A DNA stretch of 64,000 bases from a virus (IMGVR_UViG_3300020442_000017:1-64000), one strand, 5' to 3'. Counted from the stretch's first letter, positions 1-41,249 are shown. Notes: a model not told the origin generated them from the letters alone. Program-made: numbers and translations.

Positions 1-3000
1 TCTACATGGGGTATTTGTGGTATCTGGGCAAATGGTTTGAAAGCCACTGGTTTCAAATCAATGGTTATCGCTCAGTACACTGGTGTATCTCTACAGAAAG
101 ACGATAGAGCATTCATCCGTTACGACGAGTTTACCAACACATTCAATCAAGCATCACTGAAGGATGCATTTGCTACTGTTCCTTATCATACTAAGGGTGA
201 TGCATTCTGGAAGGATGACTGGAGAAACTTCCACGTTCGTGCATCTGAAGACGCATTCATTCAGTGTGTTAGTATCTTCGCCGTTGGTTTCGCTGATCAC
301 TTCCTAATGGAAAGTGGTGGTGATATGTCAATCACCAACTCTAACTCTAACTTTGGTAACACATCCTTACATGCTATTGGTTTCAAAGGATTTGCATTCA
401 ACCAAGATAAGGGTGGTTATCTAACAGACATTATTCCTCCAAAGATTGTTGAGGAAGTAGGAAATAGTAAGAAACAAGCATACTATACTATTGACGTTCA
501 GGCATCTAACGATCAAGGAAACCACACCAAACTATATCTTGGTGATGATAATGCTTATGTCCCAACTGAAAGACCTGCTGCTACAATCGGTGGTTATCGT
601 ATTGGTGCGAAGTCTGATGAAAAAATCTATGTAAAACTATCACCAAGAACTACTGGTGGTAATAGTGAGTTCAATGCAACTCTAACTCCAAATGGATTTA
701 AGAAGTTTACTGCTACTCCAGATATTCTAAATCCTAATGCTGCACAGGTTAATAATAAAGCACAAGATGCTGCTAATCTGATTGAAGCAAACAAAGAATT
801 TATTGCTTATGAAGCATATGGTTACATCACTGCAAAGTATCCAGCACTTCTAGTCAAGCAAAGTATTCAGATTGTTAAGTGTCGTCGTGATATTGGTTAT
901 CTACTTGATGCTACTATCCAAGACTTGAGACTTGGTGGTAACATCAATACTATTCAAGCTGCTGAATCTTATTATGTTAAGAGTGGTGGTACTGATAGTC
1001 TCAGTTACATTAATAATGAACTGCAAGAAACTCTAGAAGGTTACTACTATGCTAGAGATCTAGCAATTGCTGCTCTTCGTAACTATTCATATAAGAGAAC
1101 TGGTGTAGAGACAACTGCTGGTAATTCTATCATCAAAGTTGGTGATAGCAGTGGTATTGTACCAGGCATGACTGTTGCTGACTACGCACCTAGTGAGTTT
1201 GAGAATGCACAAGGCACTCAAACAAATGATCTTAAGAATGGTGCTACCAGACCAGCACAACCTGTTATTCCTGACAATACATTTGTTAAGCGTATTGTTG
1301 ATGCTACCACAGTTGAACTTGGTCAGAGAGCAACAACTAGCGTCAAGCAAGTAGTAGCAGATCGTAATGGTGATGCAAGAGAGTTGATTCTTGCTAACAA
1401 GACATTTATTGCTACAGAAGCATATGAAAGAATGCTTCTTGATTATCCTAATTACACACCTTCTACTGGTTATAATGCAACCACAGGTAAGGCAAAGTGT
1501 ATTGATGACCTAGAGAAAGCAATTGAAGCAGTTGCAGAAAACACTGCTTTTGGTGGTAATGCTGATACATGGGATGCAGCATACTATTATGATAGTGGTG
1601 CTGTTCAAGATCTAGCAGCAAAGAAAGACGAAACTATTACAGCATTTAATTACTGTAAAGATATGGCCATTCAGGTCATGCGTAAAGAAGATGTGTTCAT
1701 CTTTGGTACTCATGGTCTAACACAGTCTACAGTTACACCTAATGACCCTGTTACTGAAGAACAGGGAGAACTAGTTAATGATAGAAATGGTGATGCTCGT
1801 AATCTAATCCTTGCTAACAAGAATCTAATTGCTCATGAAGCAGTTCAGAGAATGATTCTTGAATCATCAACAGATCAATTCACACCTACAGGTGCTGTAT
1901 ATGATCCTACTGCTGGTGATCTAACACTTACAATCTCTCAGCATGGTCTAACTGGTGCTGATTCTTATACTGTACAGAGTGCAGATTATGATCCTGTAAG
2001 TGGAAAACTAACAGTAACTATTCCTAACCATAGTTTTGGTAACGGTGAAAGAGTTAAGTTTGATGATAACTCTCTTACCTTTACATGCTCACAGGATAGT
2101 AATGCTACCAACCACACATATCCAAGAGTAAGCGACCCTGTAAGTAATAAGTGGTTGCAAATTTCTCACGTGACCACAAATACTTTTGAGGTCAATGTTG
2201 GTGATACTCTTGATGGTAACTACACTCATACATTTGTATCTGCCGTCACTAATGGTCTTAAGAGAGCAGCGGATAGTGTAAGATTTGATTACAATTCATT
2301 CACATTTACATGTGCGATGGATTCTTCTGAGCAGAAGACATATCCTCGTATTGGTGATCCTGCTGGTGGTAGAGTTCTTCCTATTAGTACAACAACTGCT
2401 GATACTATTACAGTTGCAGTTGGTAAATCACTACTAGTTGATCATGATGTAACCACTGCTGATTACGATCCAAATTCAGGTGAACTTACACTAGACATTG
2501 GTGCTCACAATCTTTCTGTAGGAACTAGCATCAAGATTCCTAATAACGCACTATCATTCAAGTGTGCTCAAGACAACTTCACTGCTGTTAAGACATATCC
2601 ACGTGCAGGTGTTGATCCTTATGCTGATAAGGCAATCAAGATTGAAAAGGTAGGATCTTCTTTCCATACAGCAACTGATGGTGCATACAACCCCACCACT
2701 GGTGATCTAACAATTACAATTCCTAATCATGGTTTTGCTAATGGTAGTAGAGTTAGATTGGCAGATAATTCATTCACATTTACATGTGCAATGGATAATT
2801 ATGCTACTGAGCATTCATATCCAAGAGAGGGAGATCCTGCAAGCGGTGAGTTCTTAGATGTTTCTAATGTAACTACCAATACATTCACAGTTAATGTTGG
2901 ACCTGCTGGTTCTACACAACAGTTCACACCTACAAATGCATCATATGATTCTGCAAGTGGTGAACTAACTCTTACCATTGCTGGTCATGGTTTAGGTATT

Positions 3001-6000
3001 GGTGAAGGTGTTGTCATTGCAGATAATGCACTATCATTTACCTGTAACATGGATGGTAATGATAGCACAAAGACATATCCACGTACCAACAAGGATAATG
3101 CATCTTCTAGATCTTTGTCTATTGTCAAGAAGACTACTGATACCATTACATTAAATGTTGGTAATGCTGGTAATAACAAGACATTTACTCCTACAACAGG
3201 TTCATATAATGAAACAACTGGTGCTTTAGATCTTAACATTGGTCAGCATGGTCTTGCTGTTGGATCTAACATTGTACTAAAAGATAATTCAATTAGATTT
3301 ACATGTGATAAGGATGGCAACCAGAGTGTTGAGAGTTATCCTCGTCCTCAGGTTGACCCATTTGCAGGTAAATCTATTGAGATTACTGATGTTGCATACA
3401 CAGAATCTACTGCTACTGGTGCAACATACAATCCTCACAATGGTGATCTAGAGATTACAGTTCCTAGTCATGGATTTACTGGTCCTCAAGAGTTCACACC
3501 TCTAGTTGGTCAAACTGCATACGATGCAGCGACTGGTGTTCTAACACTTCAGATTCCTAACCATGGTCTACAAAATGGTGAGTATATCAGAATTAAGGAT
3601 AATTCACTAACATTTACTTGCACCAAGGATAGTGATGCTACTAACCACACATATCCACGTGCTACTGATCCTGCTAGTAATAAGGATCTAGTTGTTAGCA
3701 ATGCAACTCAAAGCACATTTGAGGTCAATATTGGACCTGCTGGTGGTTATGGACAATATGTACACACATTCGTATCTGCTGCGACTGGTGCTGTTACTGC
3801 TGGTGGTGATTACATTCAGGTTGCAGATAACTCTCTATCATTCAAGTGTAGTCTAGATGGAGATACTAGTGCTAAAGCATATCCTCGTACTGGATTTGAT
3901 CTACCTAGTGGTAGATGGTTACAAATCAGATCTACAACTGCAAATACATTTGTTGTTAACGTAGGTAAGTCTTCTAATCTCTCTACTCATACATTTGATT
4001 CTGCTGTTGCTAATGGTATTAGAAAGCAGACTGGTGTTATCACAGTTAATGTTGGATTTGATAGCAATACTAACAACCAATACACTCATACATGGGATAG
4101 TGCTTTAGCTGATGCTGTTGAGTTTACTCCTCAGTCTACTCATACATTTGTATCTGCTGTTTCTAATTCTGTATCCCATGCTCCAGATGCAGCACATACA
4201 TTTAAGAGAGCAGCAACTGGTGGTGTTGCCAGACAGAATGGTACTATCACTGTTAATGTTGGTGCTGCTGCTCCAGCAGACAGATACATTCACGTCTGGG
4301 CAGGTGGAACTGCTACTGGTGCTGTCAAGTCTGGTGGTAATTACACTCATGCTTGGGTATCTTCTGGAAATGATTCTGTACATAAGGTATTCTCTATTGC
4401 TGGTAACAGAAACTATCACGACCAAGATTGTGTTGATGATGCTGTAGATGTACTAGAGGCAGTTGCAGATAACGTAGCGTTCGGTGGTAATGATAAGACA
4501 TGGGATGCTGCTTACTCATATAAGACTGGTGCTCACGTTGCTGGTGAGGAGACTGAAACTAATGAAGTCTTCCGTCATGCTAAAGAAATGGCTGGTCAGG
4601 TTATCAAGAACCAAAAGATTCTAAGAATTGGTAACCATGGTATTAGTCAGGTATATGATACTACTATTACTGAGGATGATCCTACTTCTGTAGATAATAA
4701 GAGTGGTGATGCATACAATCTATTGATTGATAATGCTGCATTCATTGCTTCAGAAGCATATGATAGAATGATCTTTGAGTTCCCAGACTTCACACCTCCA
4801 ACTGGTAACCCACAAGATTGTAAGGATGATATCAAAGACTTCGTTGTTGAGATTGCTCATAACGTAGGATTTGGTGGAAACGATAGAGTTTGGGATATGT
4901 CTAATCTCTATGTTTCTGGTGCTCATGTTGTAGGTGAAGAAGCACAAACTCTCAAGGCATTTGAAGATGCTAAAGAGATTATGGTTCAGGTTGCAAGAAA
5001 TGAAAAAGTTCTTGTGAGTGGATCACATGGTAAGACTCAGGCATTTGATAATACTATTACAGTAGATGCATCTACACCAGTTAATAATAAGGTTGCTGAT
5101 GCTAGAGATCTAATTCTTGCTAATAAAAACTTCATTGCTGAGATTGCACTAGGAAGAATGCTTGCACAGTATTCTAACTACATTCCAGCACAGGGTTATA
5201 CTACTAACGATTGTCTTGATGACCTCAAGGATGTTGTAGATGTTGTAGCACATAACCTAGCATATGGTGGCAATGATCGTGTATGGGATGCAGCACTTCT
5301 ATACAATGCAGGTGCTCATGCATCAGGCACTGAGAACGAAACTGTTTATGCATTCAATCAAGTTCGTGATATTATCAGACAGGTAATTGTTAATGATACA
5401 GTTACAGTTGATGGTCACACAGCACTAAGTCAGTCAACTGATACATCTATCACAAATGGTGTTGCTAATGGTGATTGTGATCAGGCAAAAGCAACTGTTA
5501 CTACACTCGTTAGCATTCTAACTAATGCTATCAATACACCATCTTCACTATATGGTATTACTCGCACTGAGTCTAGTTCTAAGTGTGTTGCTGTTGTATC
5601 TACAATCAATACACTATATGATATCGTCAAGAATTCTATCACAACACCTGAAAGTCTTCAGTCTGTAACTAGAACTGTTGGTGGTGGTAAGTGTGACAAC
5701 ATCAGATCTACTATCAATACACTATTTGGTATTGTTACATCTACTGTTGCTAATGGTTCTGCACTAAATTCTATTACAAGAAATATCTCTAACGGTCCTT
5801 GTCAGGAAGTTGCATCAACAGTTACCACACTATTTGGTATTATCACTAATAGTATTAGCACTGCTGGTTACCTAGACACCATTGATAAGACTGAGATTCC
5901 TCTTGGTCTAACATTGGGTCAATCTGTTAATGCTAATTCAACAACTACAGATACCTATCTATGGTTCCAATGGCCAACAACTGGTGGTGTAGCAGACGAT

Positions 6001-9000
6001 GGTATCTACACAGATAAGAAACCAGTTATTGATCCATTCTTTAACAATGATCCTGCCAACGTTGGCAATCAGGATACAAGTTATCCTGAATGTGCTAATG
6101 AAGCAAGTGCTGTTCGTCAGTACTTCACAAATATTGGTACAATCATTCAGTCTGGTTTGGGTAGTGTTGATAGGAATGAACCTACTTCTTCCTCTGCACT
6201 CTCAAGAAGAGCAACTATCTGGACATTAACAGATACATCTAAGGCACCTGCTAATCAATCTGATCCTCATAAATTTGAAACTGGAACACCAGTAAGACTT
6301 GTTCCACGTCCTAAAGCTGGTAAGACAGTTGATAAGCGTAATGTAAGACTACCAAATGGTTTTGATACTAATACTGAATACTATGTAATTGCACCAGGTA
6401 GAGAGACAAATCCACAAGATTTCTCTACAACAACATCATTTAATGGTCTTCAGCAAGACGTTCTAATGCTTGCAAGCAGCAAAGAGAATGCTGCCGCTGG
6501 TATCTATCTACACTCTCAGGAAGTTAATGGTATTCACCCTGACATTGAGATTGATCTGTATCAGTTCACTATTGATGATAGTTATGATCTACATCAATAT
6601 GTTTGTGTTCTTGTAAACAATGGTATTCAAACTGATGTATCTCACATCTTTGATCTACCTAAAGCAAATGTACCTGAAGGTCATCAAGTATTCTTCAGAG
6701 CAGCACCTGGCAAAGATATGCCTACGGTTGGTGGTACTGATGCTAATGACCCTGCTGTTGCAGAACAGTCTGGTGTAAACATTGGCAAACTTAGAGGAGA
6801 TGTATTCTTCTGGGCAAGATATATCACACCTAAGGTATTCAAGATCTATAGATCTCATGCTGATGCAATCAGTGATGTTAATTCTATTGATCTAACATCT
6901 TCTGCTAACATTGGTTTCAATGTATTTGCTAACAAGCGTACATCACCAATGCGTTATGATCCTTCATTCATTAACCCAGCGGTTAGTGATAAGGGTAAGT
7001 GGTTCCTACAAGTAGAACCAAATTCTTCTGGAGCACCTGCAACATCTCAAGAGATTCTTGCAAGACTTCATGACGCTGAATATAACGATGCATCTGGTAA
7101 CACCAAAACTAATGATACTTGGTACACACGTCTGAAGGATGATAGAGTTCCTGATGATCGTATCTATCGTCTACGTTATGTAATTCCTAGTTACCTCAAG
7201 TCTGTTCGTGATCCTCTAAATGGATTCACAATCAAGATGAGGAAGGATGAAACCAGAAAACTTCTTCCACAAAGAATTGTTCTGAAGCCTGCATCTGGAA
7301 ATGCTGTAACTAAGGCGGTCTTCAATAATACCACAGATAGTGGTCAGGCAAATGAAATCATCGGTATGACCGCTGCTCAGTTTGCTAATCCTGGTGGTAA
7401 TCAGAATGCACTTGATACATCTAAGAGATATGATCCTTATAGGAAGGATCTAACAGGTGGAGGTAAAGAGTATCAAGCATATATTAGAACTGACTCTACA
7501 ATTCAGGCAACAATCCAGTCTGGTAGATACTTTATTGATGGTGTAAGTGGTGATGAACTACTAGAACTAACTGTATTTGACCCTGAAATTGATTCTCAAG
7601 TTCCTGCACTTAAGAATGAAACTCTCACCAGTGTTAAGATTACTGCACCTCAGGGTGGTAGTTTTGTTTCTAATACTGCTAATCCTGTTAGTGGATACTT
7701 CCAGAATACTAAGGTTGAATGGGATGGTAATGATAAGGGTACTGGTTATATCCACGCTGCTCTAAATGTACCTGGTACTACAACATGGCACCTAATTCTT
7801 AAGGGTATCAGTGGTACTCTAGATTATAGTTCTACTGAAGACACTAGATTTACACAGGTTCAGGGTAGTACAGTTGTATTTGCTGATCAACTTCAGGATC
7901 CTGATGATGGTAAGTCACTAGAACTTAAGGAACTTATTCGCAAGGGTTATCCACAATATTATTATAAAGAGAAGTCATCTAACGTATACACACTAACTCC
8001 TGGTGATACTATTACTGACCAAGCAGGTAATCAATATTACATTGATTCTGTAAATGATATTGGTGAGATTGAAGACACCTTCTATATCTTTGATGTTGAA
8101 ACAATTCAAAGACGTATTTTTGAGCAGCAAGATGGTATCTATTATCTAACTGCTGTACGTGGTAATGTTTCTCCATTCCCAACTGGTGCTGGTAACTTAG
8201 GTAACTTTAGAAACTTCAAGTTCTCTCAACCAATCAGCAAACTATATCCACTAAACTATAAGAACGATCCAGTATGGTTCAAGCAATTAGATCCTAACTT
8301 CGTTGATCCTCCAGCAACATTCTCTGCTGCTGATAACTATGTTCATGGTCTAGTTACTGTCAATGACTTTAAAGGTTCTATCACCAAAGAATCTATCATT
8401 GATATCATTGAATCTCCTGCACTATCTAATAATACTTACACAGGATCTAATGTTGTTCAGGCACAAGCAGGTAATGCTGCTTCTGGATCTGAAGATCGTA
8501 AGATTCCTATTGCTGGTGACAATACAGTTGTTGTTGATCAAAGACTCTACGTTGAACTTCGTAGACCATCTATCGCTCGTGCTGGTAACCATACGTTTGA
8601 ATATCTTGGTTTTGGTCCAGGTAACTACTCCACTGGTCTACCTGCTAGACAGGATGTTATCCTTACCACAACTCAAGACTTCTATGCACAGTCTAAGAAG
8701 CAAGATGGTGGTCTTGTATTCTACACTGGTCTAAACTCTAATGGTGACCTATACATTGGTAACCGTAAGATTGACGCTATTACTGGTGAGGAAGTATTCC
8801 TAGAGTCTGCACAGTTAGTTGACTCTGAAGATCCTGATGATCTCATTGATAGCCTCGTCACAACATTTGACACTCCTGTAACATTCAACCAGAATATTAC
8901 AGTCAATGGTGGTGATGAAGGTAAGTTAGTCAATACATTCAACTCACCTGTAACAGTTAATGTTGCTAGTGGTTTGGGTCTAAATTCCCTCACCATTCTA

Positions 9001-12000
9001 TCAACTGTTAATCCTAATGCAACTCCAGTTGGAGATGATGAGACACTTGATAGATCTGCACAGCAGGGCAATCAAATGACCAACGGTGACATTGTTCTTA
9101 ATAAGAACATGATCGCTGCTTCTATCTTCCAGTTCAACCCACGTGGTTCTAATGGATTTGCACAAGGTTATAAGATTCAGAACCATGTTGTAGCATCAGA
9201 AGGTTCTAATGCTACTCCTTCACAAAGTGCAACCGATAAAGATTACTTTGATAATACTCAGGTAGTTCGTTATGGTACTAATGGTCCCCTACCTGTACCT
9301 GGCGACATCCTACTCAAGGGTGATAGTGTTGGTGCATCTGGTTCTATTGGTTGGATTTATGCTAACTCTTACTATGTACTAGGAGATCAAACTGCTAACA
9401 ATCCTGACCAAGTATTCAATGTTGTATTTGATGGTAGTAATCTAGTTAGAATTAACTGGAAGAATGCCAAACAGAATGATTCCTTCGGTCCTAAGATTAC
9501 ATCTGCCACTAAGATTAGAATTAAGAATTGCAGTGTACCACAACTCAATGGTGTATTCAGCGTTGATCCTAATACATTCAGTTCTACTAATGATTACATC
9601 AAGATTGTTATTGGTGCAAATGTTACTAACTCTCCAATTGTTTGGAACAATGAAGTTAATGCTTCTATGGAGTATGCTGATACTTCATGGAAAGAGTGGG
9701 GTGTTCTTGGTTCTGAGGCAATCAGAACAGAAACATCTACACTAACTGATTACAGAGTTGGTATTAACACTGTCGCTAGATCTAGCAACACAGATGCTTG
9801 GAAGACTTCATTCGTTAATACTTCTACTATACCTAAAGCTAACCTAGATGTTGAAGGTAATGGTATCATTACTGGTTACAGTATTGCATATGCAACTGGT
9901 AATCGTTCTGCCATGGAAAATGCATTCGTGGTTGGTACTGCAACACCTAATGATCTAACACAATCTTCTGTCTTCCGCATCAATGCTGCCACCAATCGTG
10001 TTGGTATTAATGTATCTGATGATGGAACTGGTTCTACACAACTTGATAGAACTCTTGTTGTTAATGGTAATGGTAGATTCACCAACGATGTTAAGTTTGA
10101 GCAAGACATTGATGTTAATGGTGGTGGTCCTGGTGCTGCTAATACTGCTGAGATCAGAACTTCTATCACTGATGGAACGTTTGAGTTCATCATGGACAAC
10201 ACATTTGTCGGTCAACATGATGCTTATGCTTCAAGTGTTGGTGGTAGTAATGGATTCAAGATGGCTGGTTATGCCAAGAACATTGAATTTGGTAATGAGC
10301 AATCAGCAATCCAAGAGTTTGAGATTGGTAACAAGGCAAATAAGAGTTTCGTTGATCTAGGTGCAACTCCTGATGGAGACGGTACTAACGCACACATTTC
10401 TAGAATTTCTATTGGTGGTGCATTTGATAGTACTGAAACAGATTCCTATACACAGATTAATAACAAGGAACTAAAAATTGCTGGTGACATTCTACTTGGT
10501 CAAGTTAAGGACAAAGCAACTGGCACTAACACAACCAGAAGAGGTGCTGGAGACACTGCGTTCTTCAGATCAACTGCATCTAAAGTCTCTCTACTAGGAG
10601 ACAACAGTGCAACAACAATCGTTGATTTTGCTACTAATGCATCACAGTTAACAATTGCTGGTCAAGGTGGTAGCACCAGAATTAGAAACAATACAACAGT
10701 TGATGCTACTTTAAGAGTAAACAGTGACATTATATTATGTGGTGGTCTCAACAACTTCTCATTCACTGCTGATAGAAAGCAAGCAGGTTCTAAATCTATT
10801 ATCGCACATACCAATGGTATTCTCGGTAATAATCTTTATAATAAGAATGTAGATATTCTTGATGTCCTAAGAGTTAATGCACCAACAACAACTCCTGTTG
10901 GTAACAAGTCTGCTTATAACAGAATTGATACTGGTGGTTCAGGTACATGGGGTGATGCGACATATAGTCAAGCAATTCCACAAGCAGGATTACCTGCTCT
11001 ACCTACTGGACAATATTACTTACCACTTAAGTTTAGTCCTTTCAATAATGTAACCACTGCTAATCCTGATGGAGATCAGTATTTTAATGAGAATGATATT
11101 CTTCTCATTGACAGTGCTGAGACAGCAACTGGTCATGCTGAATTTGTTAAGATCGTTTCTCTACCAAGAATCGTATCAACAAATGCACCTTACTACATTG
11201 TTGTAACCAGACAACCATTTGGTTCATTTACCAACATTTCCACAACACATGCTGATACAACACCAATTTATAAGGTAACTGTTCAGTTAGATTCTACTTG
11301 GATTACATCTGATATTGATCAGAGTGCTGGTAATAAGACAATCAATCTATCACAATTCGGTGGTAGTCTTGATGTTGCAGATTATGTAATCATCTCACGT
11401 GAAGATGGTACTCCTGCAAATGATGGTGTTGATGATGAAGGTGAAATCTTCAAATTGACAACTGTAATTAACGCAGTTGCGAAAAAATTATCCGTCAAAA
11501 AAGGGTGTGATTCTGCTTCAGAGAAAACAGTATTTGAAGTTGATTCAATTACTGGTAGTGTTACTATCGGTGATGGCACTGAGAATACAAATACTCTAAT
11601 CAACGGTTCACTAGCTATCAAGGGCAAGTGTTCTGCTTCTGATAATGTCTACCCATCTACTGATTTTGCTAACAATAGTAAGTTTACTCTTAGTAATCAA
11701 GAATTACCTGTATTCAGCGTTGATATTTGCACTGGTGATACTGTTGTAGGTCAAGCTGCTGGTACTGTATTTGTTGTTGGTCAATACTATGGATCAACTG
11801 CTGCTGCTCATGATGAAACAACAGTTGTTACATCATATGTTTATGATGCAACTTCACTACAAGCAAATGGTGCTATCACCACACTAGCAAATGCTGTTGG
11901 AACAGGTGACTATGACATTCCTATTTCTAGTAATGTAGATGCATTCCAGAAGGATGACATGATCGCTATTATTGATGGCGATAGTAATATTGAGATCCTT

Positions 12001-13386
12001 CTTATCACTGATGATCCTAGCACTAATGCACAAGGAACTTCAATCCTACCAACAATTTATAATTCTGCATATCCTGCTGGAACATATCCTAATGGTGGTA
12101 GAGGTCAGGAAGATACAGGAGTTGGTGGTGCCACTGGTGGAACATGGAACGCAGGTGCTGTTGTTGTTAAACTCAAGAAGTTTACTGAGACAACATCACT
12201 TATCAATCCAATTCCTGCAACTGGTAGAACCGCTGTTGAATCACCAAACCAAAATGGTAATAAGATCAGAGTAAGACTAAAGAATTCTAATCTTGTTTCT
12301 GACAAATTAGACTATGTTCAGTTCCTCAAGTTTAAGACTGGTACTGATGTTGAGTGGTTCTATCCTGATAGTATTGATGGCAATGCTGATCAACTATTTG
12401 GTGTAAGAACATCTAAGTCTACAAGACTTGATTCTAGTGGCAACTTCCTTGCTACTGGTACTCACACCAGATACTTTGGTGGTGGTGCTCTCAAGGTTCA
12501 TGATCATGTTGAAATGATTGGTGGTAACCTCAGAATGTATGGTTCTGATGGTGAAACTCTAGTCTTCAACGTATCTAACGATGATGACCACTTAGGTGAT
12601 GGTGCTGTCCTTGACGAAAAGACAGGCGTCATGGGTATGTACGTCAATGGTGGAGCAATGGTCGGTGGTGATCTTAAGGTCATCTATGAAAATTGTCAAA
12701 CCAATGGACAATGTAGCAAAGACATCAAATTCCAAGCATTTGGTTCTGATGGTTCTGTTAACATGGGTGAGAAACTTTACATCAAGGGTCAAGTTTCTGC
12801 TGGTGGTAACTCACAAGAACCAATCTTACATATTGATAACCTCGGTGCTGCTGGTAATGCTACAACAGGACCAAGAGACTTTAAGATTTATCAAGATTGT
12901 TCAATTGATGCCTTTGGAATCGCTCGTTACTTCACTAGAAACGGTGGTCGCAGATATACATATGTTGAGCAGTCACTTACTGGTATTGGTCAAACACAGG
13001 CAAACCCACTACAACCTAATAACAACTATCTAATTAATACAAGCACTGGTTCTAACATCGTAATGTATCTACCTGAATATGCAGAAACAGGTGACATGAT
13101 TAGATTCGTTGAGGTTAGTGGTAACCTAACATATAATACAAGTCTAGTAATCAGAGCACTTAAAGTGAACAACGTTCCAGTTGCAATCCAAGGTGATACA
13201 TCTGGTACTAAGATTCAAGCAGGTGCTGGTCAAATGACTACTGCATGGGACAGTGGTGAATTGGTCGTTCAAACTAGAAACGCATCCTTCGGTCTAATTT
13301 ATGTTGGTCCTACTGATGCCGCTGGTGATCCTAATGCATCTACAGTTCCATCCAATCTACGTGGATGGTGGTTAACCGAACTCTAA
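1..13386 (+). CDS. Giant virion structural/fibre protein (5'-truncated, >4460 aa) with 5 phycobiliprotein-like helical modules and 8 YPR-D-P beta modules
   Basis: Frame 1 is open from position 1 (STWGICGIWANGLKATGFKSMV...), so the TTG at 37 is not the true start. Thr/Gly/Asn/Asp-rich, with internal repeats and a C-terminal GWWLTEL typical of cyanomyovirus giant structural proteins. Followed by collar genes. Confidence 0.85.
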   Translation, partial: STWGICGIWANGLKATGFKSMVIAQYTGVSLQKDDRAFIRYDEFTNTFNQASLKDAFATVPYHTKGDAFWKDDWRNFHVRASEDAFIQCVSIFAVGFADHFLMESGGDMSITNSNSNFGNTSLHAIGFKGFAFNQDKGGYLTDIIPPKIVEEVGNSKKQAYYTIDVQASNDQGNHTKLYLGDDNAYVPTERPAATIGGYRIGAKSDEKIYVKLSPRTTGGNSEFNATLTPNGFKKFTATPDILNPNAAQVNNKAQDAANLIEANKEFIAYEAYGYITAKYPALLVKQSIQIVKCRRDIGYLLDATIQDLRLGGNINTIQAAESYYVKSGGTDSLSYINNELQETLEGYYYARDLAIAALRNYSYKRTGVETTAGNSIIKVGDSSGIVPGMTVADYAPSEFENAQGTQTNDLKNGATRPAQPVIPDNTFVKRIVDATTVELGQRATTSVKQVVADRNGDARELILANKTFIATEAYERMLLDYPNYTPSTGYNATTGKAKCIDDLEKAIEAVAENTAFGGNADTWDAAYYYDSGAVQDLAAKKDETITAFNYCKDMAIQVMRKEDVFIFGTHGLTQSTVTPNDPVTEEQGELVNDRNGDARNLILANKNLIAHEAVQRMILESSTDQFTPTGAVYDPTAGDLTLTISQHGLTGADSYTVQSADYDPVSGKLTVTIPNHSFGNGERVKFDDNSLTFTCSQDSNATNHTYPRVSDPVSNKWLQISHVTTNTFEVNVGDTLDGNYTHTFVSAVTNGLKRAADSVRFDYNSFTFTCAMDSSEQKTYPRIGDPAGGRVLPISTTTADTITVAVGKSLLVDHDVTTADYDPNSGELTLDIGAHNLSVGTSIKIPNNALSFKCAQDNFTAVKTYPRAGVDPYADKAIKIEKVGSSFHTATDGAYNPTTGDLTITIPNHGFANGSRVRLADNSFTFTCAMDNYATEHSYPREGDPASGEFLDVSNVTTNTFTVNVGPAGSTQQFTPTNASYDSASGELTLTIAGHGLGIGEGVVIADNALSFTCNMDGNDSTKTYPRTNKDNASSRSLSIVKKTTDTITLNVGNAGNNKTFTPTTGSYNETTGALDLNIGQHGLAVGSNIVLKDNSIRFTCDKDGNQSVESYPRPQVDPFAGKSIEITDVAYTESTATGATYNPHNGDLEITVPSHGFTGPQEFTPLVGQTAYDAATGVLTLQIPNHGLQNGEYIRIKDNSLTFTCTKDSDATNHTYPRATDPASNKDLVVSNATQSTFEVNIGPAGGYGQYVHTFVSAATGAVTAGGDYIQVADNSLSFKCSLDGDTSAKAYPRTGFDLPSGRWLQIRSTTANTFVVNVGKSSNLSTHTFDSAVANGIRKQTGVITVNVGFDSNTNNQYTHTWDSALADAVEFTPQSTHTFVSAVSNSVSHAPDAAHTFKRAATGGVARQNGTITVNVGAAAPADRYIHVWAGGTATGAVKSGGNYTHAWVSSGNDSVHKVFSIAGNRNYHDQDCVDDAVDVLEAVADNVAFGGNDKTWDAAYSYKTGAHVAGEETETNEVFRHAKEMAGQVIKNQKILRIGNHGISQVYDTTITEDDPTSVDNKSGDAYNLLIDNAAFIASEAYDRMIFEFPDFTPPTGNPQDCKDDIKDFVVEIAHNVGFGGNDRVWDMSNLYVSGAHVVGEEAQTLKAFEDAKEIMVQVARNEKVLVSGSHGKTQAFDNTITVDASTPVNNKVADARDLILANKNFIAEIALGRMLAQYSNYIPAQGYTTNDCLDDLKDVVDVVAHNLAYGGNDRVWDAALLYNAGAHASGTENETVYAFNQVRDIIRQVIVNDTVTVDGHTALSQSTDTSITNGVANGDCDQAKATVTTLVSILTNAINTPSSLYGITRTESSSKCVAVVSTINTLYDIVKNSITTPESLQSVTRTVGGGKCDNIRSTINTLFGIVTSTVANGSALNSITRNISNGPCQEVASTVTTLFGIITNSISTAGYLDTIDKTEIPLGLTLGQSVNANSTTTDTYLWFQWPTTGGVADDGIYTDKKPVIDPFFNNDPANVGNQDTSYPECANEASAVRQYFTNIGTIIQSGLGSVDRNEPTSSSALSRRATIWTLTDTSKAPANQSDPHKFETGTPVRLVPRPKAGKTVDKRNVRLPNGFDTNTEYYVIAPGRETNPQDFSTTTSFNGLQQDVLMLASSKENAAAGIYLHSQEVNGIHPDIEIDLYQFTIDDSYDLHQYVCVLVNNGIQTDVSHIFDLPKANVPEGHQVFFRAAPGKDMPTVGGTDANDPAVAEQSGVNIGKLRGDVFFWARYITPKVFKIYRSHADAISDVNSIDLTSSANIGFNVFANKRTSPMRYDPSFINPAVSDKGKWFLQVEPNSSGAPATSQEILARLHDAEYNDASGNTKTNDTWYTRLKDDRVPDDRIYRLRYVIPSYLKSVRDPLNGFTIKMRKDETRKLLPQRIVLKPASGNAVTKAVFNNTTDSGQANEIIGMTAAQFANPGGNQNALDTSKRYDPYRKDLTGGGKEYQAYIRTDSTIQATIQSGRYFIDGVSGDELLELTVFDPEIDSQVPALKNETLTSVKITAPQGGSFVSNTANPVSGYFQNTKVEWDGNDKGTGYIHAALNVPGTTTWHLILKGISGTLDYSSTEDTRFTQVQGSTVVFADQLQDPDDGKSLELKELIRKGYPQYYYKEKSSNVYTLTPGDTITDQAGNQYYIDSVNDIGEIEDTFYIFDVETIQRRIFEQQDGIYYLTAVRGNVSPFPTGAGNLGNFRNFKFSQPISKLYPLNYKNDPVWFKQLDPNFVDPPATFSAADNYVHGLVTVNDFKGSITKESIIDIIESPALSNNTYTGSNVVQAQAGNAASGSEDRKIPIAGDNTVVVDQRLYVELRRPSIARAGNHTFEYLGFGPGNYSTGLPARQDVILTTTQDFYAQSKKQDGGLVFYTGLNSNGDLYIGNRKIDAITGEEVFLESAQLVDSEDPDDLIDSLVTTFDTPVTFNQNITVNGGDEGKLVNTFNSPVTVNVASGLGLNSLTILSTVNPNATPVGDDETLDRSAQQGNQMTNGDIVLNKNMIAASIFQFNPRGSNGFAQGYKIQNHVVASEGSNATPSQSATDKDYFDNTQVVRYGTNGPLPVPGDILLKGDSVGASGSIGWIYANSYYVLGDQTANNPDQVFNVVFDGSNLVRINWKNAKQNDSFGPKITSATKIRIKNCSVPQLNGVFSVDPNTFSSTNDYIKIVIGANVTNSPIVWNNEVNASMEYADTSWKEWGVLGSEAIRTETSTLTDYRVGINTVARSSNTDAWKTSFVNTSTIPKANLDVEGNGIITGYSIAYATGNRSAMENAFVVGTATPNDLTQSSVFRINAATNRVGINVSDDGTGSTQLDRTLVVNGNGRFTNDVKFEQDIDVNGGGPGAANTAEIRTSITDGTFEFIMDNTFVGQHDAYASSVGGSNGFKMAGYAKNIEFGNEQSAIQEFEIGNKANKSFVDLGATPDGDGTNAHISRISIGGAFDSTETDSYTQINNKELKIAGDILLGQVKDKATGTNTTRRGAGDTAFFRSTASKVSLLGDNSATTIVDFATNASQLTIAGQGGSTRIRNNTTVDATLRVNSDIILCGGLNNFSFTADRKQAGSKSIIAHTNGILGNNLYNKNVDILDVLRVNAPTTTPVGNKSAYNRIDTGGSGTWGDATYSQAIPQAGLPALPTGQYYLPLKFSPFNNVTTANPDGDQYFNENDILLIDSAETATGHAEFVKIVSLPRIVSTNAPYYIVVTRQPFGSFTNISTTHADTTPIYKVTVQLDSTWITSDIDQSAGNKTINLSQFGGSLDVADYVIISREDGTPANDGVDDEGEIFKLTTVINAVAKKLSVKKGCDSASEKTVFEVDSITGSVTIGDGTENTNTLINGSLAIKGKCSASDNVYPSTDFANNSKFTLSNQELPVFSVDICTGDTVVGQAAGTVFVVGQYYGSTAAAHDETTVVTSYVYDATSLQANGAITTLANAVGTGDYDIPISSNVDAFQKDDMIAIIDGDSNIEILLITDDPSTNAQGTSILPTIYNSAYPAGTYPNGGRGQEDTGVGGATGGTWNAGAVVVKLKKFTETTSLINPIPATGRTAVESPNQNGNKIRVRLKNSNLVSDKLDYVQFLKFKTGTDVEWFYPDSIDGNADQLFGVRTSKSTRLDSSGNFLATGTHTRYFGGGALKVHDHVEMIGGNLRMYGSDGETLVFNVSNDDDHLGDGAVLDEKTGVMGMYVNGGAMVGGDLKVIYENCQTNGQCSKDIKFQAFGSDGSVNMGEKLYIKGQVSAGGNSQEPILHIDNLGAAGNATTGPRDFKIYQDCSIDAFGIARYFTRNGGRRYTYVEQSLTGIGQTQANPLQPNNNYLINTSTGSNIVMYLPEYAETGDMIRFVEVSGNLTYNTSLVIRALKVNNVPVAIQGDTSGTKIQAGAGQMTTAWDSGELVVQTRNASFGLIYVGPTDAAGDPNASTVPSNLRGWWLTEL

Positions 13387-25972: not shown

Positions 25973-26063
25973 TAAAGAGTGGAAGGCAAGAGTGAGCGAC
26001 CCCAGAGGAAAATGCTCTTTAATTTGAATCTCTTCCACACCCTATTCTTCATTTTTCATTGAA

Positions 26064-26336
26064 ATGCAACTCACCAATCAAGTCTGCATCGTTGATTTCT
26101 TCCCTGAAGCATTCATTGCTGAGGCAGATGAGGAGAGAGGCATGAAAGTTGTTGTCAAGCGATTCATCAAGCGTGTGACTTTCCCCTGTGATTATGGCAA
26201 AGACCAGCAATCATGGTCTGTTGTGACCGCATCAACCTATGCTAATGAGGTTGCTGAGCGTATTGCACACGGTGCTGAGGTAACTGCTTTCAACACTGAA
26301 AAGTGCCCTGACTCTTATACACCTTGTGCTTGTTAA
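26064..26336 (+). CDS. Hypothetical early protein
   Basis: First ORF after E3. Confidence 0.7.
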   Translation: MQLTNQVCIVDFFPEAFIAEADEERGMKVVVKRFIKRVTFPCDYGKDQQSWSVVTASTYANEVAERIAHGAEVTAFNTEKCPDSYTPCAC

Positions 26337-26338
26337 TT

Positions 26339-26467
26339 ATGTCATGTAACACAAATGAAGAGATCATGGAATATCTCTTTGAACAAGTTCAGGAAGAGTA
26401 TCCTGAACTGTCTGTAATAGAACAGGCAACCATCGCATCCCATCGCTTCTGGAATTTAGCACAATGA
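26339..26467 (+). CDS. Small hypothetical protein (42 aa, MSCNTNEEIMEYLFEQ...)
   Basis: Read manually; fills the gap; ATGA coupling to the next ORF. Confidence 0.6.
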   Translation: MSCNTNEEIMEYLFEQVQEEYPELSVIEQATIASHRFWNLAQ

Positions 26468-26640: not shown

Positions 26641-26666
26641 ATAGACATCAGCAAGGGACACCACCC

Positions 26667-26931: not shown

Positions 26932-26956
26932 AAGTTCATCAAACAAAGGACACCAC

Positions 26957-39447: not shown

Positions 39448-41249
39448 TGCCATATACCCAAGTAAATAACTTAGACTTCGCTGATATTAAAACTGCTCTC
39501 AAAGAATACATGAGGGCAGAGACAGAATTTACTGACTATGACTTTGAAGGATCGGTCATCAGTCAATTAATTGATGTATTGGCATATAATACGTACTACA
39601 CGGCGTTTAACGCCAACATGGTAGTCAATGAACTGTTTCTAGATTCATCCACATTACGAGACAATGTGGTAGCACTAGCGAAACAGTTAGGATATGCACC
39701 AAAATCAATAACCTCTCCAAAAGCAGAAGTTGATTTACAGTTATTTTTTCCTAATAATTCACCTAGTAATGTAATTATTAAGAGAGGTGGTGGTTTTGTT
39801 ACAAATTATGATGGTTCTCTGTATCAATACGTAGTAAAAGAAGATTATAAACAACCAGTTGTCAACGGCACTGCTACTTTTGAGGATCTTCCCATCTATG
39901 AGGGTACTCTTATTACTACAAAAACACTTGTAGATACCTCACTTAAGAATCAAAGATTTATTATTGAGAACAATGGTGCTGATACTAGCACACTTACTGT
40001 TAAGGTATTTGAAAATGCAAATTCCACAGCAGAGACTATTTTTAGTAAAGCAGAAAATATCTTAGAAGTAGGTGCAGATGATACTGTATACTTCATCAGT
40101 GAAATTGAAGATGAGAGATATGAGATCTTTTTTGGTGATGGCGTACTAGGAAAGAAACTTGGCAATCAAAATATAGTAGAAATTTCATATGTTGCTACTA
40201 ATGGACCTGTTACTAATGGTGCTAACAACTTCATTTTTAATGGATCTGTTGTAGATGGTGATGGAAATTCACTAGGAGTTCCGTTTTCCGTATCAGATTT
40301 AACAACATCTTCCGCAGCAAGCGGAGGTGCAACTATAGAATCAGTCTCTAAAATTAAATATAATGCACCAAAATACTTTGGATCACAAAATAGAGCAGTT
40401 ACAAGTAATGATTATTCTGCAATTGTGCGGAAGATCTATCCTGCTATTAGCGATATTATTGTATTTGGAGGAGAAGATCAAGAACCACCTGCATATGGTA
40501 AAGTCTTTATTTCAGTAAAACCATCAGAAGCGGCAGCTCTTTCAACTTTTACAAAGAATCAACTAAAAACTGAACTTAAGAAGTACACTGTTGCCTCTAT
40601 TAGACCAGAATTTGTTGATCCTTCTATTCTTTACGTAGAATTGAATACAAGTGTATACTTTGATGGCACTAAAACTCAGTTACTATCTACAGATATTGCT
40701 TCAAAGGTATCAACTGCTGTACAAAATTATTTGACTACCTCAGGAACAGAAAAGTTCAATGGTAAGTTTAGATATTCAAAATTTGTTGGTGTCATTGATG
40801 GTTCCGAACGTGCTATCAATTCAAATGATACCACTGTTACTATGAGGAAAGATTTTATTGCACAAATAAATGCATCCACATACTATGAAATTTGTTATAA
40901 GAATGCATTCCTAAAAGATTGTGATGATCCTGTAGTTTCATCTACTGGTATGACTGTCTTTGAGCATCCTACTTATACTTCATATCTTGAAGATAGAAGT
41001 GGCAAATTAGTCCTATATAGACTAGATTCTATCACTGGCGACAAAATTGTCTTAAATGATTCTGTTGGTGATGTTAATTATGACACAGGTGAAATTAAAA
41101 TTTATGACTTTACTATCCTAAAAGGTAGTTTTACTGACAATCGTATTGAATTGCGTGTAAAACCTGCTAATAAGGATATTGAAGTAAAGCGTGAGATGTA
41201 TCTATCTGTAGATGTATCAAACAGTAAATTCGTTGCGTATAAAGAGTAG
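39447..41249 (+). CDS. gp6: Baseplate wedge subunit gp6
   Basis: LDF..IK..LK..FTDYDFEGS...LAYNT.Y...NE.FLDS; Y.IFFGDG.LG; QNRAVT..DY; PP.YGKVFIS.KP. Confidence 0.95.
   Translation: MPYTQVNNLDFADIKTALKEYMRAETEFTDYDFEGSVISQLIDVLAYNTYYTAFNANMVVNELFLDSSTLRDNVVALAKQLGYAPKSITSPKAEVDLQLFFPNNSPSNVIIKRGGGFVTNYDGSLYQYVVKEDYKQPVVNGTATFEDLPIYEGTLITTKTLVDTSLKNQRFIIENNGADTSTLTVKVFENANSTAETIFSKAENILEVGADDTVYFISEIEDERYEIFFGDGVLGKKLGNQNIVEISYVATNGPVTNGANNFIFNGSVVDGDGNSLGVPFSVSDLTTSSAASGGATIESVSKIKYNAPKYFGSQNRAVTSNDYSAIVRKIYPAISDIIVFGGEDQEPPAYGKVFISVKPSEAAALSTFTKNQLKTELKKYTVASIRPEFVDPSILYVELNTSVYFDGTKTQLLSTDIASKVSTAVQNYLTTSGTEKFNGKFRYSKFVGVIDGSERAINSNDTTVTMRKDFIAQINASTYYEICYKNAFLKDCDDPVVSSTGMTVFEHPTYTSYLEDRSGKLVLYRLDSITGDKIVLNDSVGDVNYDTGEIKIYDFTILKGSFTDNRIELRVKPANKDIEVKREMYLSVDVSNSKFVAYKE

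What the first reader, a model, noticed from the sequence alone, without database searches (positions are those of the whole stretch)
766..6160. Phycobiliprotein-like domains with both bilin-type cysteines in a giant virion protein: a possibly pigmented phage particle
Seen: five helical modules start at 766, 1372, 1792, 4708 and 5098 (DAANLIEANKEFIAYEAYGYITAKYPAL..KCRRDIGYLL..LGGN; ..GKAKCIDDL..FGGN; DCVDD; DCKDD; DCLDD). Their Cys codons are at 880, 1498, 4429, 4819 and 5212. Five closing helices each start with a Cys (GDCDQAK 5476, KCVAVVS 5584, KCDNIRS 5692, PCQEVAS 5800, ECANEASAVRQYF 6091). Known (recalled from memory): phycocyanin alpha has GKDKCARDIGYYLR..LVAGGTG around bilin-binding Cys84/Asp87. 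Phycocyanin beta has D.VNRI..NA..IV..AA...FAEQPQL and KMKEAALDIVND..ITRGDCSAIVAEIAGYF around Cys153/155. Module 5 reads RQVIVND..SIT..NGDC. Inference: these are globin-core phycobiliprotein domains lacking the X/Y dimerisation helices but keeping both chromophore cysteines. Cyanophages are known to carry bilin-synthesis genes (ho1, pcyA, pebS) and a CpeT-like lyase without an established phage substrate. These domains could be that substrate, giving a bilin-decorated virion (photoprotection, light-gated adsorption, host mimicry).
Basis: partly seen in the sequence, partly recalled or inferred. Interest (0 to 1): 0.92.

Follow-up and report, generated by a model that had tools for sequence, protein, structure and literature searches.

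The report
Phycobiliprotein-like domains in cyanophage fibre
A giant baseplate-fibre protein of a marine cyanobacterial virus contains five domains, apparently nested inside one another, that are true relatives of the host's light-harvesting pigment proteins and keep the pigment-attachment motif. It can now be tested whether the virus particle itself carries pigment and senses light; pigment binding has not been shown.

Summary
The window is a T4-like cyanomyovirus. Its 5'-truncated 4461-aa "short tail fibre" ORF carries five ~130-aa helical modules, one of them split by an 850-aa insert, and a sixth lies in a second giant ORF.

The modules are homologous to phycobiliproteins. Pfam PF00502 scores above its cut-off. 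A 53-sequence profile hits only phycobiliproteins in the PDB, with the module Cys on Cys82. The ten best fold matches (Z 8.3-11.3) are all bilin-binding globins.

Across 1741 copies elsewhere the bilin motif C-x-R-D is 96/92/99% conserved. Five Cys-initiated helices follow the five modules. Counts and orders in relatives (5:5, 12:12, nnnMhchchch) point to nested domains, each closed by its own helix. Equivalence of that second Cys to beta-Cys153/155 is not shown.

Close relatives and S-PM2 have cpeT just upstream of this gene. Uncultured phages with tandem arrays carry heme oxygenase and bilin reductase (5 of 6 complete genomes). Light-dependent adsorbers (S-PM2, P-HM1, P-HM2) have the domain; dark adsorbers (P-SSM2, P-SSP7) lack it.

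Counter-examples exist (Mosig, P-SSM2). Chromophore attachment is inferred, not shown.

This scan noted the same kind of domain in at least eight other cyanophage genomes. I found no published report.

The parts
1..13386 (+). Giant virion/baseplate-fibre ORF, 4461 aa, 5' end cut by the contig start (about 398 aa missing)
   Evidence: PHROG 4527 'short tail fiber protein', E=0, aa 1688-4461. Residue 1 aligns with residue 399 of the homologue in L154. It is followed by a gp12-like short tail fibre gene at 13391-15061.
736..1143 (+). Module 1 (helices A-G), canonical bilin motif K-C-R-R-D, Cys codon 880
   Evidence: HMM i-E 6e-54. Broad-family HMM 111 bits. Alignment A3.
1345..1755 (+). Module 2, motif C-I-D-D, Cys codon 1498
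   Evidence: Pfam PF00502 aa 458-564 matches profile positions 33-140. phmmer against phycoerythrin alpha, E 0.01, Cys on Cys82. AlphaFold model pLDDT 81.
1771..1869 (+). Module 3, N-terminal part (helices A-B)
   Evidence: HMM positions 4-36, i-E 7.5e-9.
1882..4407 (+). Insert of about 850 aa in the B-E loop of module 3: eight beta-type repeats of 75-105 aa, each with F-[TKS]-C ... Y-P-R
   Evidence: Motif positions. PHROG 5342/1276 repeats. No Pfam family.
4408..4680 (+). Module 3, C-terminal part (helices E-G), motif C-V-D-D, Cys codon 4429
   Evidence: HMM positions 42-134, i-E 1.1e-26.
4678..5085 (+). Module 4, motif C-K-D-D, Cys codon 4819
   Evidence: HMM i-E 5.9e-61. PF00502 16.3 bits on its own.
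5071..5478 (+). Module 5, motif C-L-D-D, Cys codon 5212
   Evidence: HMM i-E 5.1e-61.
5470..5892 (+). Four tandem 36-aa Cys-initiated helices (Cys codons 5476, 5584, 5692, 5800). Proposed helix H of modules 5, 4, 3 and 2, in that order.
   Evidence: Helix HMM i-E 3e-13 to 5e-14. Alignment. One helix per module in relatives.
6085..6177 (+). Fifth, most divergent Cys-initiated helix (Cys codon 6091). Proposed helix H of the divergent module 1.
   Evidence: Helix HMM i-E 3.2e-10.
46940..47380 (+). Sixth, contiguous complete module with both Cys (N-K-C-F-R-D and P-V-K-C-E-D-V), inside the baseplate-wedge-type giant ORF 41249..49657
   Evidence: HMM i-E 2e-18 and 5e-33. PF00502 16.1 bits. Sequence read. 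PHROG 4406/2885 for the ORF.

Best explanation
The giant ORF encodes a baseplate-attached fibre protein of a T4-like cyanophage. Its N-terminal third is built from five domains homologous to phycobiliproteins, the bilin-binding globins. Each domain keeps helices A, B, E, F and G and the bilin-attachment Cys and Asp on helix E, and each lacks the X/Y dimerisation helices. This much is shown.

The domains appear to be nested. Each later module sits in the G-H loop of the one before it. Module 3 also carries an 850-aa beta-repeat insert in its B-E loop, the place where ApcE has its own loop insert. Five Cys-initiated helices then close the modules in reverse order. This is inferred from the order and counts of the pieces.

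Most likely the helix-E Cys receives a covalently bound bilin, supplied by the host or by phage heme oxygenase and bilin reductase, either autocatalytically as in BBAGs and ApcE or with help from a lyase. The second Cys, before each closing helix, would be served by the phage's T-type lyase CpeT. The fibre would then carry about 5-10 bilins per chain. This step is inferred and not shown.

The most plausible use is as a light-responsive element that gates adsorption. That is speculative.
For: Homology to phycobiliproteins:
- PF00502 scores 31.7 bits against a cut-off of 22.2.
- Profiles A1, A2 and A5 hit almost only phycobiliprotein-family chains in the PDB. All alignments are in one register, query 5-65 to chain 35-100, with Cys on Cys82 and Asp on Asp85. 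The best E is 9e-5, with 98 chains at E<1.
- Foldseek's top ~47 ranks are all phycobiliproteins.
- The VIA-align top ten (Z 8.3-11.3) are phycoerythrin, allophycocyanin, the ApcE bilin domain and photocobilin globin domains. Ordinary globins score below 8.

Functional constraint:
- In 1741 copies from 165 proteins, Cys is 96%, Arg(+2) 92% and Asp(+3) 99% conserved, while the domains are otherwise only ~25-45% identical.
- The search profile had Asp, not Arg, at +2, so the Arg is an independent match to the phycobiliprotein C-X-R-D motif.
- PMC10151467 names C-X-R-D as the bilin-attachment signature and shows that BBAG globins attach bilin without a lyase.
- The single Cys is kept in tandem arrays that have no second Cys (887 modules, 1 closing helix). 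An intradomain disulfide therefore cannot explain its conservation.

Nesting:
- Helix counts equal module counts in 19 of 39 proteins and are within one in 29.
- Piece orders include MMMMMhhhhh, nnnMhchchch and MhMhMh.

Gene association:
- cpeT lies upstream of the gene in 5 of 5 close relatives with enough upstream DNA and in S-PM2.
- In L151, two cpeT genes and a bilin reductase lie directly upstream.
- 5 of 6 complete genomes bearing the domain encode a bilin reductase. Three of them, which have no psbA, have adjacent heme oxygenase and bilin reductase genes. At least three phage lineages are involved.
- 8 of 25 fragments bearing a bilin reductase carry the domain, against a summed CheckV completeness of 9.5.
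- CpeT tracks the helix-bearing form: 5 of 5 T4-like carriers have it, and 0 of 4 tandem-array phages do.

Phenotype:
- S-PM2, P-HM1 and P-HM2, which adsorb only in light (PMC6628666), have 6-13 domain matches.
- P-SSM2 and P-SSP7, which adsorb in the dark, have none.
Against: - No chromophore has been observed on this protein or on any virion.
- Modules 2-5 of this window have Asp instead of the propionate-binding Arg84, a rare variant (51 of 1741 copies).
- Single modules score below Pfam's cut-off (20.8 and 16.3 bits; modules 1 and 5 have no hit). Foldseek E-values are weak (0.03). The model is of moderate confidence (pLDDT 81).
- The second Cys and closing helix find no phycobiliprotein by sequence, and I could not fold the nested arrangement.
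- Counter-examples to an obligatory link exist. Pelagibacter phage Mosig (heme oxygenase plus bilin reductase) and P-SSM2 (known bilin genes) have no detectable domain. S-PM2 and G008 have the domain but no bilin reductase.
- This record's held 92 kb has no bilin gene.
- The co-occurrence and phenotype samples are small and phylogenetically clustered.
- A conserved lone Cys in an extracellular fibre could instead form inter-chain disulfides.
Confidence: 0.5

Rival explanations
1. Structural exaptation only. A host-derived or ancient bilin-binding globin domain was recruited as a compact helical building block or spacer of the fibre, carries no chromophore, and the C-x-R/D-D residues are kept for folding or for contacts between domains.
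For: Modules 2-5 have lost Arg84. The domain occurs in arrays of up to 23-35 copies in single proteins, as structural repeats do. Many carriers (S-PM2, G008) have no bilin reductase, and phages with bilin genes can lack the domain. No pigment has been reported for purified cyanophage (from my own knowledge; nothing found).
Against: Conservation of Cys, Arg and Asp at 96/92/99% across copies that are otherwise ~25-45% identical is hard to explain without the ligand these residues contact in phycobiliproteins. The association with cpeT, heme oxygenase and bilin reductase across at least three phage lineages also argues against it.
Confidence: 0.33
2. The conserved cysteines serve redox or cross-linking chemistry. 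Inter-chain or inter-module disulfides, or a metal site, stabilise an extracellular fibre, and the resemblance to the bilin site is historical.
For: Virions are extracellular, where free thiols are unusual. Each beta-repeat of the insert also has one conserved Cys. The closing-helix Cys is invariant in 171 copies.
Against: This does not explain the conserved Arg and Asp next to the Cys. One Cys per domain cannot pair fully within a trimer. It also does not explain the linkage with bilin synthesis and lyase genes.
Confidence: 0.1
3. The modules bind bilin non-covalently or transiently inside the infected cell, as a bilin sink, as a chaperone for PebS/CpeT, or to strip host phycobilisomes. They are not pigmented in the released virion.
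For: Photocobilin globin domains, which rank second and sixth among the fold matches, bind biliverdin (binding from my own knowledge). The role of phage bilin genes is still called enigmatic (PMC11480375).
Against: The host protein is a structural baseplate or fibre protein made late in infection. The conserved Cys argues for covalent attachment.
Confidence: 0.05
4. The resemblance to phycobiliproteins is a chance or compositional match between helical sequences.
For: Individual E-values are modest: 1e-2 to 9e-5 against the PDB, and Foldseek 0.03.
Against: All of the roughly 100 PDB hits belong to one family and align in one register. Pfam's cut-off is passed here and in other members (45.9 bits in P0117). 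An independent structural aligner ranks ten bilin-binding globins first.
Confidence: 0.02

Closest known systems
Phycobiliprotein subunits (Pfam PF00502; CpeA/B, CpcA/B, ApcA/B)
   Same: Same globin-like fold with helices A, B, E, F and G. The Cys and Asp on helix E are in register with Cys82/84 and Asp85/87. Module 1, the second-ORF copy and 92% of family members have the full K-C-x-R-D-[IV]-G-Y signature followed by G-G.
   Different: There are no X/Y helices, so no alpha-beta heterodimer or disc is expected. The domains are embedded, nested or tandem, in 3000-6000-aa virion proteins rather than being 160-180-aa soluble subunits. Modules 2-5 have C-x-D-D. Chromophore is unproven.
ApcE (core-membrane linker) bilin-binding PB domain
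   Same: A phycobiliprotein-type domain inside a very large multidomain protein, with an insert in the B-E loop. ApcE attaches its bilin autocatalytically (from my own knowledge). Fold match Z 9.7 to 4xxi_A, plus three more ApcE chains.
   Different: ApcE has one PB domain followed by REP linker domains. Here there are 5 or more domains, an 850-aa insert, and a phage fibre context.
BBAGs and photoglobin/photocobilin globin domains (bilin-binding globins of heterotrophic bacteria; PMC10151467)
   Same: C-X-R-D motif. Genetic association with heme oxygenase and ferredoxin-dependent bilin reductase. Lyase-independent bilin attachment in BBAG-1/3. Photocobilin chains rank 2 and 6 by fold, Z 10.8 and 9.5.
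   Different: BBAGs are small stand-alone or B12-fused cellular proteins. These are phage structural-protein domains. No phylogeny placing the phage clade relative to BBAGs and phycobiliproteins was made here.
Phage heme oxygenase plus PcyX/PcyA/PebS cassettes and cyanophage CpeT
   Same: These are the enzymes that would supply and attach the bilin. cpeT lies 1.5-4 kb upstream of the giant gene in S-PM2 and in metagenomic relatives. Heme oxygenase and bilin reductase genes are present in 5 of 6 complete genomes carrying the domain.
   Different: The literature explains these genes as supporting host phycobilisomes, or calls them enigmatic in phages of heterotrophs (PMC11480375). No virion acceptor has been proposed there. 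The link is not obligatory (Mosig, P-SSM2).
Giant 'short tail fibre / virion structural' proteins of T4-like cyanophages (e.g. S-PM2 gene at 165928-177267)
   Same: Orthologous gene: same position (gp5 hub ... cpeT ... 2OG-Fe(II) oxygenase, giant gene, gp12), same PHROG families, and it carries the same modules.
   Different: Database annotations give no domain content. The phycobiliprotein relationship is not in the records or in the papers I searched.

Membership tests
Phycobiliprotein (Pfam PF00502) | Sequence match to the family model above the curated cut-off | tested here: met
   The whole protein scores 31.7 bits against a cut-off of 22.2, E 1.8e-7. Single modules are below the cut-off: 20.8 and 16.3 bits, with no hit for modules 1 and 5. 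Other family members pass: 27.7, 27.7 and 45.9 bits.
Phycobiliprotein (Pfam PF00502) | Globin-like fold closest to solved phycobiliproteins | tested here: met
   Model of module 2: pLDDT 81, five helices. Foldseek top ~47 ranks are all phycobiliproteins, TM up to 0.67. VIA-align Z 11.3 to phycoerythrin beta over 129 residues; the top ten are all bilin-binding globins.
Phycobiliprotein (Pfam PF00502) | C-X-R-D chromophore motif on helix E (Cys82, Arg84, Asp85) | tested here: met
   Cys and Asp are aligned in all six modules. The full C-x-R-D motif is in module 1 and the second-ORF copy. Modules 2-5 have C-x-D-D, so the Arg is not met there. Family-wide conservation is 96/92/99%.
Phycobiliprotein (Pfam PF00502) | N-terminal X and Y helices that form the alpha-beta monomer and the (alpha-beta)3 disc | tested here: not met
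   All alignments begin at phycobiliprotein residue 31-39, Pfam profile position 33. Modules follow one another with no room for X/Y.
Phycobiliprotein (Pfam PF00502) | Second attachment Cys in the G-H loop (beta-153/155) followed by helix H | tested here: inconclusive
   One Cys-initiated helix per module. The module at 46940-47380 is contiguous and has both Cys. Some profile alignments run to the end of the phycoerythrin beta chain. The C-terminal half alone finds no phycobiliprotein, and no structure was obtained.
Phycobiliprotein (Pfam PF00502) | Covalently bound bilin | not testable with these tools
   Needs spectroscopy or mass spectrometry of recombinant modules or virions.
BBAG / photoglobin-type bilin-binding globins | Genomic association with heme oxygenase and a ferredoxin-dependent bilin reductase | tested here: inconclusive
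   Not in the held 92 kb of this 48%-complete record. Present in 5 of 6 complete genomes with the domain, and adjacent to the giant gene in several relatives. Counter-examples are Mosig and P-SSM2.
BBAG / photoglobin-type bilin-binding globins | Small stand-alone or B12-fused cellular globin | tested here: not met
   The domains sit in 1000-7000-aa phage proteins. The near-length search found only gene fragments. The only hits in cellular genome bins are marine MAG contigs 70-74% identical to the phage, probably mis-binned, and one weaker Chitinophagales MAG hit at 35%.
T4-like cyanophage giant short-tail-fibre / baseplate protein | Match to the phage structural family and position in the baseplate gene block | tested here: met
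   PHROG 4527, E=0. A gp12-like gene lies directly downstream, and gp25, gp6-like and gp8-like wedge genes are in the window. The S-PM2 orthologue lies between gp5 and gp12. Presence in the particle itself was not tested here.

The most novel reading that the evidence does not exclude
The virion is itself a photoreceptor. The nested phycobiliprotein-like modules of the baseplate fibres are loaded with bilin: at helix-E Cys autocatalytically, and at the closing-helix Cys by the phage T-type lyase CpeT. Light absorbed by these bilins changes fibre conformation and so gates adsorption. This would explain the photosynthesis-independent, light-dependent adsorption of S-PM2 and P-HM1/P-HM2. It would also give the 'enigmatic' phage heme oxygenase, bilin reductase and CpeT genes a phage-encoded acceptor, including in phages that lack psbA and may infect non-cyanobacteria.
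Probability: 0.22. Interest if true: 0.95.

Novelty: new variant of a known kind. Interest (0 to 1): 0.8.

Why it matters
Two open questions become directly testable.

1. Some cyanophages adsorb only in light, independently of host photosynthesis. [quoted passage not shown] 2010).
2. It is not known why phages, including ones thought to infect heterotrophs, carry heme oxygenase, bilin reductase and an orphan T-type lyase. PMC11480375 calls this 'still enigmatic'.

A bilin-binding-globin domain family of at least 1308 sequence clusters, sitting in fibre and baseplate proteins and keeping the C-X-R-D attachment motif, is an obvious candidate acceptor. Cultured phages that carry it (S-PM2, P-HM1, P-HM2) make the test simple.

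Even if the modules turn out to be unpigmented, the multi-level nested domain architecture and the spread of a phycobiliprotein-type fold into virion proteins matter. They bear on how bilin-binding globins evolved and on how giant phage fibres are built.

Tried and rejected
- The first AlphaFold run, with only the four window modules as alignment, was poor (pLDDT 59.9). It was replaced by the 53-sequence run.
- Pfam on modules 1, 3C and 5 and on the closing helices alone gave no phycobiliprotein hit.
- Single-sequence phmmer of the second-ORF module against the PDB gave only chance hits.
- A profile of the C-terminal half (helix G, loop and closing helix) found no phycobiliprotein. I therefore do not claim sequence-level equivalence of the second Cys.
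- The near-length homologue search found only seven gene fragments and no stand-alone globin.
- The genome-contig scan could not use alignment A2 because it is too diverse. With A3 it returned five loci: four marine MAG contigs 70-74% identical to the phage, probably mis-binned, and one Chitinophagales MAG contig at 35%.
- Cluster names gave no taxonomy.
- Tandem Repeats Finder found no DNA-level repeats, so the modules are old duplications.
- No tRNA genes are in the window.
- I considered and rejected the idea that the domain is the universal acceptor of phage bilin cassettes. Mosig and P-SSM2 lack it, and two 78-79%-complete contigs bearing a bilin reductase also lack it.
I therefore could not inspect the context of the 20-35-copy proteins through that route, and could not test docking of a closing helix onto its proposed module.
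- The Gasper et al. 2017 paper on phage CpeT was not held. What I say about that enzyme lacking a shown substrate is from memory.

Full report
**What the window is.** The window is the first 64 kb of a 92-kb, about 48% complete viral record. Its DNA and proteins match T4-like cyanomyoviruses of Synechococcus and Prochlorococcus.

Frame 1 is open from base 1 to 13386, giving 4461 aa with the 5' end cut by the contig start. PHROGs files the product under 'short tail fiber protein' and 'virion structural protein' families. A gp12-like short tail fibre gene follows directly. gp25, gp6-like and gp8-like wedge genes and two more giant ORFs lie downstream.

Residue 1 of the window protein aligns with residue 399 of a homologue in a related contig, so about 1.2 kb of the gene and everything upstream are missing here.

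**The observation.**
- The five modules are real repeats, 28-45% identical to each other.
- An HMM built from them finds them again and adds a sixth copy at nt 46940-47257 in the giant ORF 41249..49657.
- Module 3 is split. Helices A-B are at aa 591-623 and helices E-G at aa 1470-1560. Eight beta-type repeats of 75-105 aa, each with F-[TKS]-C ... Y-P-R, lie in between.
- The five Cys-initiated helices all come after module 5: four as 36-aa tandem units and one further on.

**Are they phycobiliprotein relatives?** Yes.
- Pfam's Phycobilisome family (PF00502) hits the protein above its curated cut-off (31.7 against 22.2 bits), matching aa 458-564 to profile positions 33-140. Single modules fall just below the cut-off.
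- Against all PDB sequences, module 2 alone finds phycoerythrin alpha at E 0.01, with its Cys on Cys82.
- A four-module profile finds 56 chains, all but one of the phycobiliprotein family.
- A 53-sequence profile from viral contigs finds 98 chains at E<1, best E 9e-5. The 60 shown are all phycobiliprotein-family chains in one register: query 5-65 to chain 35-100, Cys on Cys82, and the invariant Asp on Asp85.
- With that alignment AlphaFold gives a five-helix model at pLDDT 81.
- Foldseek's first ~47 ranks are all phycobiliproteins. The E-values are weak (0.03), with TM up to 0.67.
- An independent all-against-all structural aligner puts ten bilin-binding globins first: phycoerythrin beta at Z 11.3, photocobilin globin domains at 10.8 and 9.5, allophycocyanins, and four ApcE bilin domains. 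Colicins, RsbR and haem globins score below 8.

**The wider family.** The profile finds 1308 cluster representatives at E<=0.001 among 1.84 billion proteins. Most are 1000-7000-aa proteins with up to 35 copies.

The family consensus reads K-C-x-R-D-v-G-y-I-i-D-A ... y-G-G-N, which is nearly the phycobiliprotein helix-E signature.

The search profile itself had Asp, not Arg, at +2. The Arg is therefore an independent agreement with the C-X-R-D motif. Rockwell et al. describe that motif as the bilin-attachment signature of phycobiliproteins and of BBAG globins, which attach bilin without a lyase (PMC10151467).

In this window, module 1 and the second-ORF copy are canonical (C-R-R-D and C-F-R-D). 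Modules 2-5 are a rare C-x-D-D variant, seen in 51 of 1741 copies.

Among 50,697 isolated phage genomes the domain is found only in cyanophages or cyanobacterial single-cell viruses: 331 and 251 records with two different queries. Most hits in cellular genome bins look like mis-binned phage contigs.

**Architecture.** Two forms exist.
- Tandem arrays of ~107-112-aa modules without a closing helix: 126 of 165 proteins, and 887 modules with only 1 closing helix on the tandem-array loci.
- Forms with Cys-initiated helices.

In the 39 proteins that have such helices, the helix count equals the module count in 19 and is within one in 29. Examples are 5:5 here and in P0009, and 12:12, 7:7, 4:4 and 3:3 elsewhere.

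The order of the pieces is informative:
- MhMhMh is plain tandem.
- MMMMMhhhhh is the pattern here.
- nnnMhchchch has three N-terminal halves, then one whole module with its helix, then three C-terminal halves each followed by a helix.

The simplest reading is nested domain insertion at two loops, B-E and G-H. The trailing helices would close the modules in reverse order.

Two details of this protein fit that reading. The most divergent module (module 1) would pair with the most divergent helix (the fifth). The second-ORF module is contiguous and has the helix and its Cys directly after helix G.

The C-terminal half finds no phycobiliprotein by sequence. Calling the closing helix 'helix H' and its Cys 'beta-155-like' therefore remains an inference from position and stoichiometry. 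Some full-module alignments do run to the end of phycoerythrin beta chains.

**Gene associations.** The held part of this record has no heme oxygenase, bilin reductase or CpeT, but its upstream region is missing.

- Synteny in relatives. In all five close relatives whose contigs reach far enough upstream, a cpeT-like gene lies upstream in the same orientation. In L154 the order is cpeT, an unknown gene, a 2OG-Fe(II) oxygenase-like gene, then the giant gene. S-PM2 shows the same order between gp5 and gp12. In another relative, two cpeT-like genes and a ferredoxin-dependent bilin reductase sit directly before the giant gene.
- Forward test. Of six CheckV-complete (>=90%) records with the domain, five encode a bilin reductase. 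The three with tandem arrays have adjacent heme oxygenase and reductase genes, and have no psbA, no CpeT and no CpeS.
- Lineages. Judged by their capsid genes, the carriers belong to at least three lineages: canonical T4-like cyanophages, distant Gp23-type jumbo phages (one with flanks ~67% identical to Rak2/CBB-like phages), and phages without a Gp23-family capsid.
- Reverse test. 8 of 25 contigs bearing a bilin reductase also carry the domain. The summed completeness of those contigs is 9.5, so the yield is roughly what near-universal co-occurrence would give, but two contigs at 78-79% completeness lack it.
- CpeT and the helix-bearing form. P-HM1, P-HM2, S-PM2 and two complete metagenomic T4-like genomes have both. 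The four tandem-array phages, P-SSM2, P-SSP7 and Mosig have no CpeT. T-type lyases serve the Cys153/155 site (stated in PMC10452541), so this fits the idea that the closing-helix Cys is their target.

**Counter-evidence.**
- Pelagibacter phage Mosig has ferrochelatase, heme oxygenase and bilin reductase next to its neck genes but no detectable domain.
- P-SSM2 has no detectable domain either. It is known to carry ho1, pebS and pcyA (from my own knowledge).
- S-PM2 and one complete metagenomic genome have the domain without a reductase. They would have to use host bilin.
- All samples are small and phylogenetically clustered.

**Phenotype.** PMC6628666 reports that P-HM2 and P-HM1 do not adsorb in the dark. 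It reports that S-PM2's light-dependent adsorption does not depend on host photosynthesis, and that P-SSM2 (less well) and P-SSP7 adsorb in the dark. [quoted passage not shown]

The domain is present in P-HM2 (6 matches), P-HM1 (6) and S-PM2 (13), in two giant ORFs each. It is absent from P-SSM2 and P-SSP7. That amounts to two independent carriers against two non-carriers, which is suggestive only.

**Mechanism and rivals.**
- Shown: homology, the conserved attachment motif, and the fibre/baseplate context.
- Inferred: nesting; covalent bilin at helix-E Cys; CpeT acting on the second Cys.
- Speculative: light-gated adsorption.

The main rival is a chromophore-free structural domain. The loss of Arg in modules 2-5, the very large arrays and the counter-examples favour it. 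The extreme conservation of exactly the bilin-contacting residues and the gene associations argue against it. A disulfide role cannot explain the Arg and Asp, or the lone Cys in tandem arrays.

**Novelty.** Searches of 8.4 million papers and preprints found no report of phycobiliprotein-like domains in phage structural proteins. The two most relevant papers discuss phage bilin genes and BBAGs without mentioning such an acceptor.

Earlier AI notes of this scan describe the same kind of domain in at least eight other cyanophage genomes. One of them gave me the nesting idea, which I then tested here.

I class the finding as a new variant of a known kind: a bilin-binding globin domain in a new, nested, virion context. 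If pigment is found on virions it would be categorically new.

Noticed in passing
window 1882-4407: Eight beta-type repeats of 75-105 aa, each with one Cys in F-[TKS]-C and a Y-P-R motif about 13 residues later. They are inserted in the B-E loop of module 3. There is no Pfam family; PHROG 5342/1276 only.
   Followed up: partly
window 41249-49657 and 51541-60000: Two further giant ORFs (2802 and 2819 aa) lie in the baseplate-wedge block. The first carries one complete phycobiliprotein-like module. The HMMs found no module in the second.
   Followed up: partly
window 29171-29767, 31518-32144, 38006-38728: Three 2OG-Fe(II) oxygenase-superfamily genes lie between the fibre and wedge blocks. Relatives and S-PM2 have another directly upstream of the giant gene, and Pelagibacter phage Mosig has four next to its heme oxygenase and bilin reductase genes. 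This recurring neighbourhood is unexplained.
   Followed up: no
window 18001-20000 (in ORF 16572-21335): Local G+C of 0.43 and GC skew of 0.26, well above the flanks, inside a 1587-aa virion structural gene. This is possibly a Gly-rich repeat region.
   Followed up: no
window 26001-28000 and 34001-38000: G+C of 0.44-0.46 against a background of 0.33-0.39. The small ORFs there match DUF7717 and DUF7326. These may be islands of different origin.
   Followed up: no
L144 / G001 (IMG/VR contig of 322,512 bp with terminal repeats): A complete jumbo phage whose capsid and portal region is ~67% identical in DNA to Rak2/CBB-like phages of enterobacteria. It carries a phycobiliprotein-like array and an adjacent heme oxygenase plus bilin reductase pair, with no psbA. 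The host is unknown.
   Followed up: partly
L241 (Pelagibacter phage Mosig, MT647606.1 39650-43977): A cultured SAR11 phage has ferrochelatase, four 2OG-Fe(II) oxygenases, heme oxygenase and a bilin reductase immediately before its neck genes, but no detectable phycobiliprotein-like domain. Its bilin acceptor, if there is one, is something else.
   Followed up: partly
L156 (S-PM2 RefSeq NC_006820, 168556-173383): The RefSeq record lists 16 tRNA features inside the giant fibre CDS, all with the locus tag of that CDS. This looks like an annotation coordinate artefact, not real tRNA genes in the ORF.
   Followed up: no
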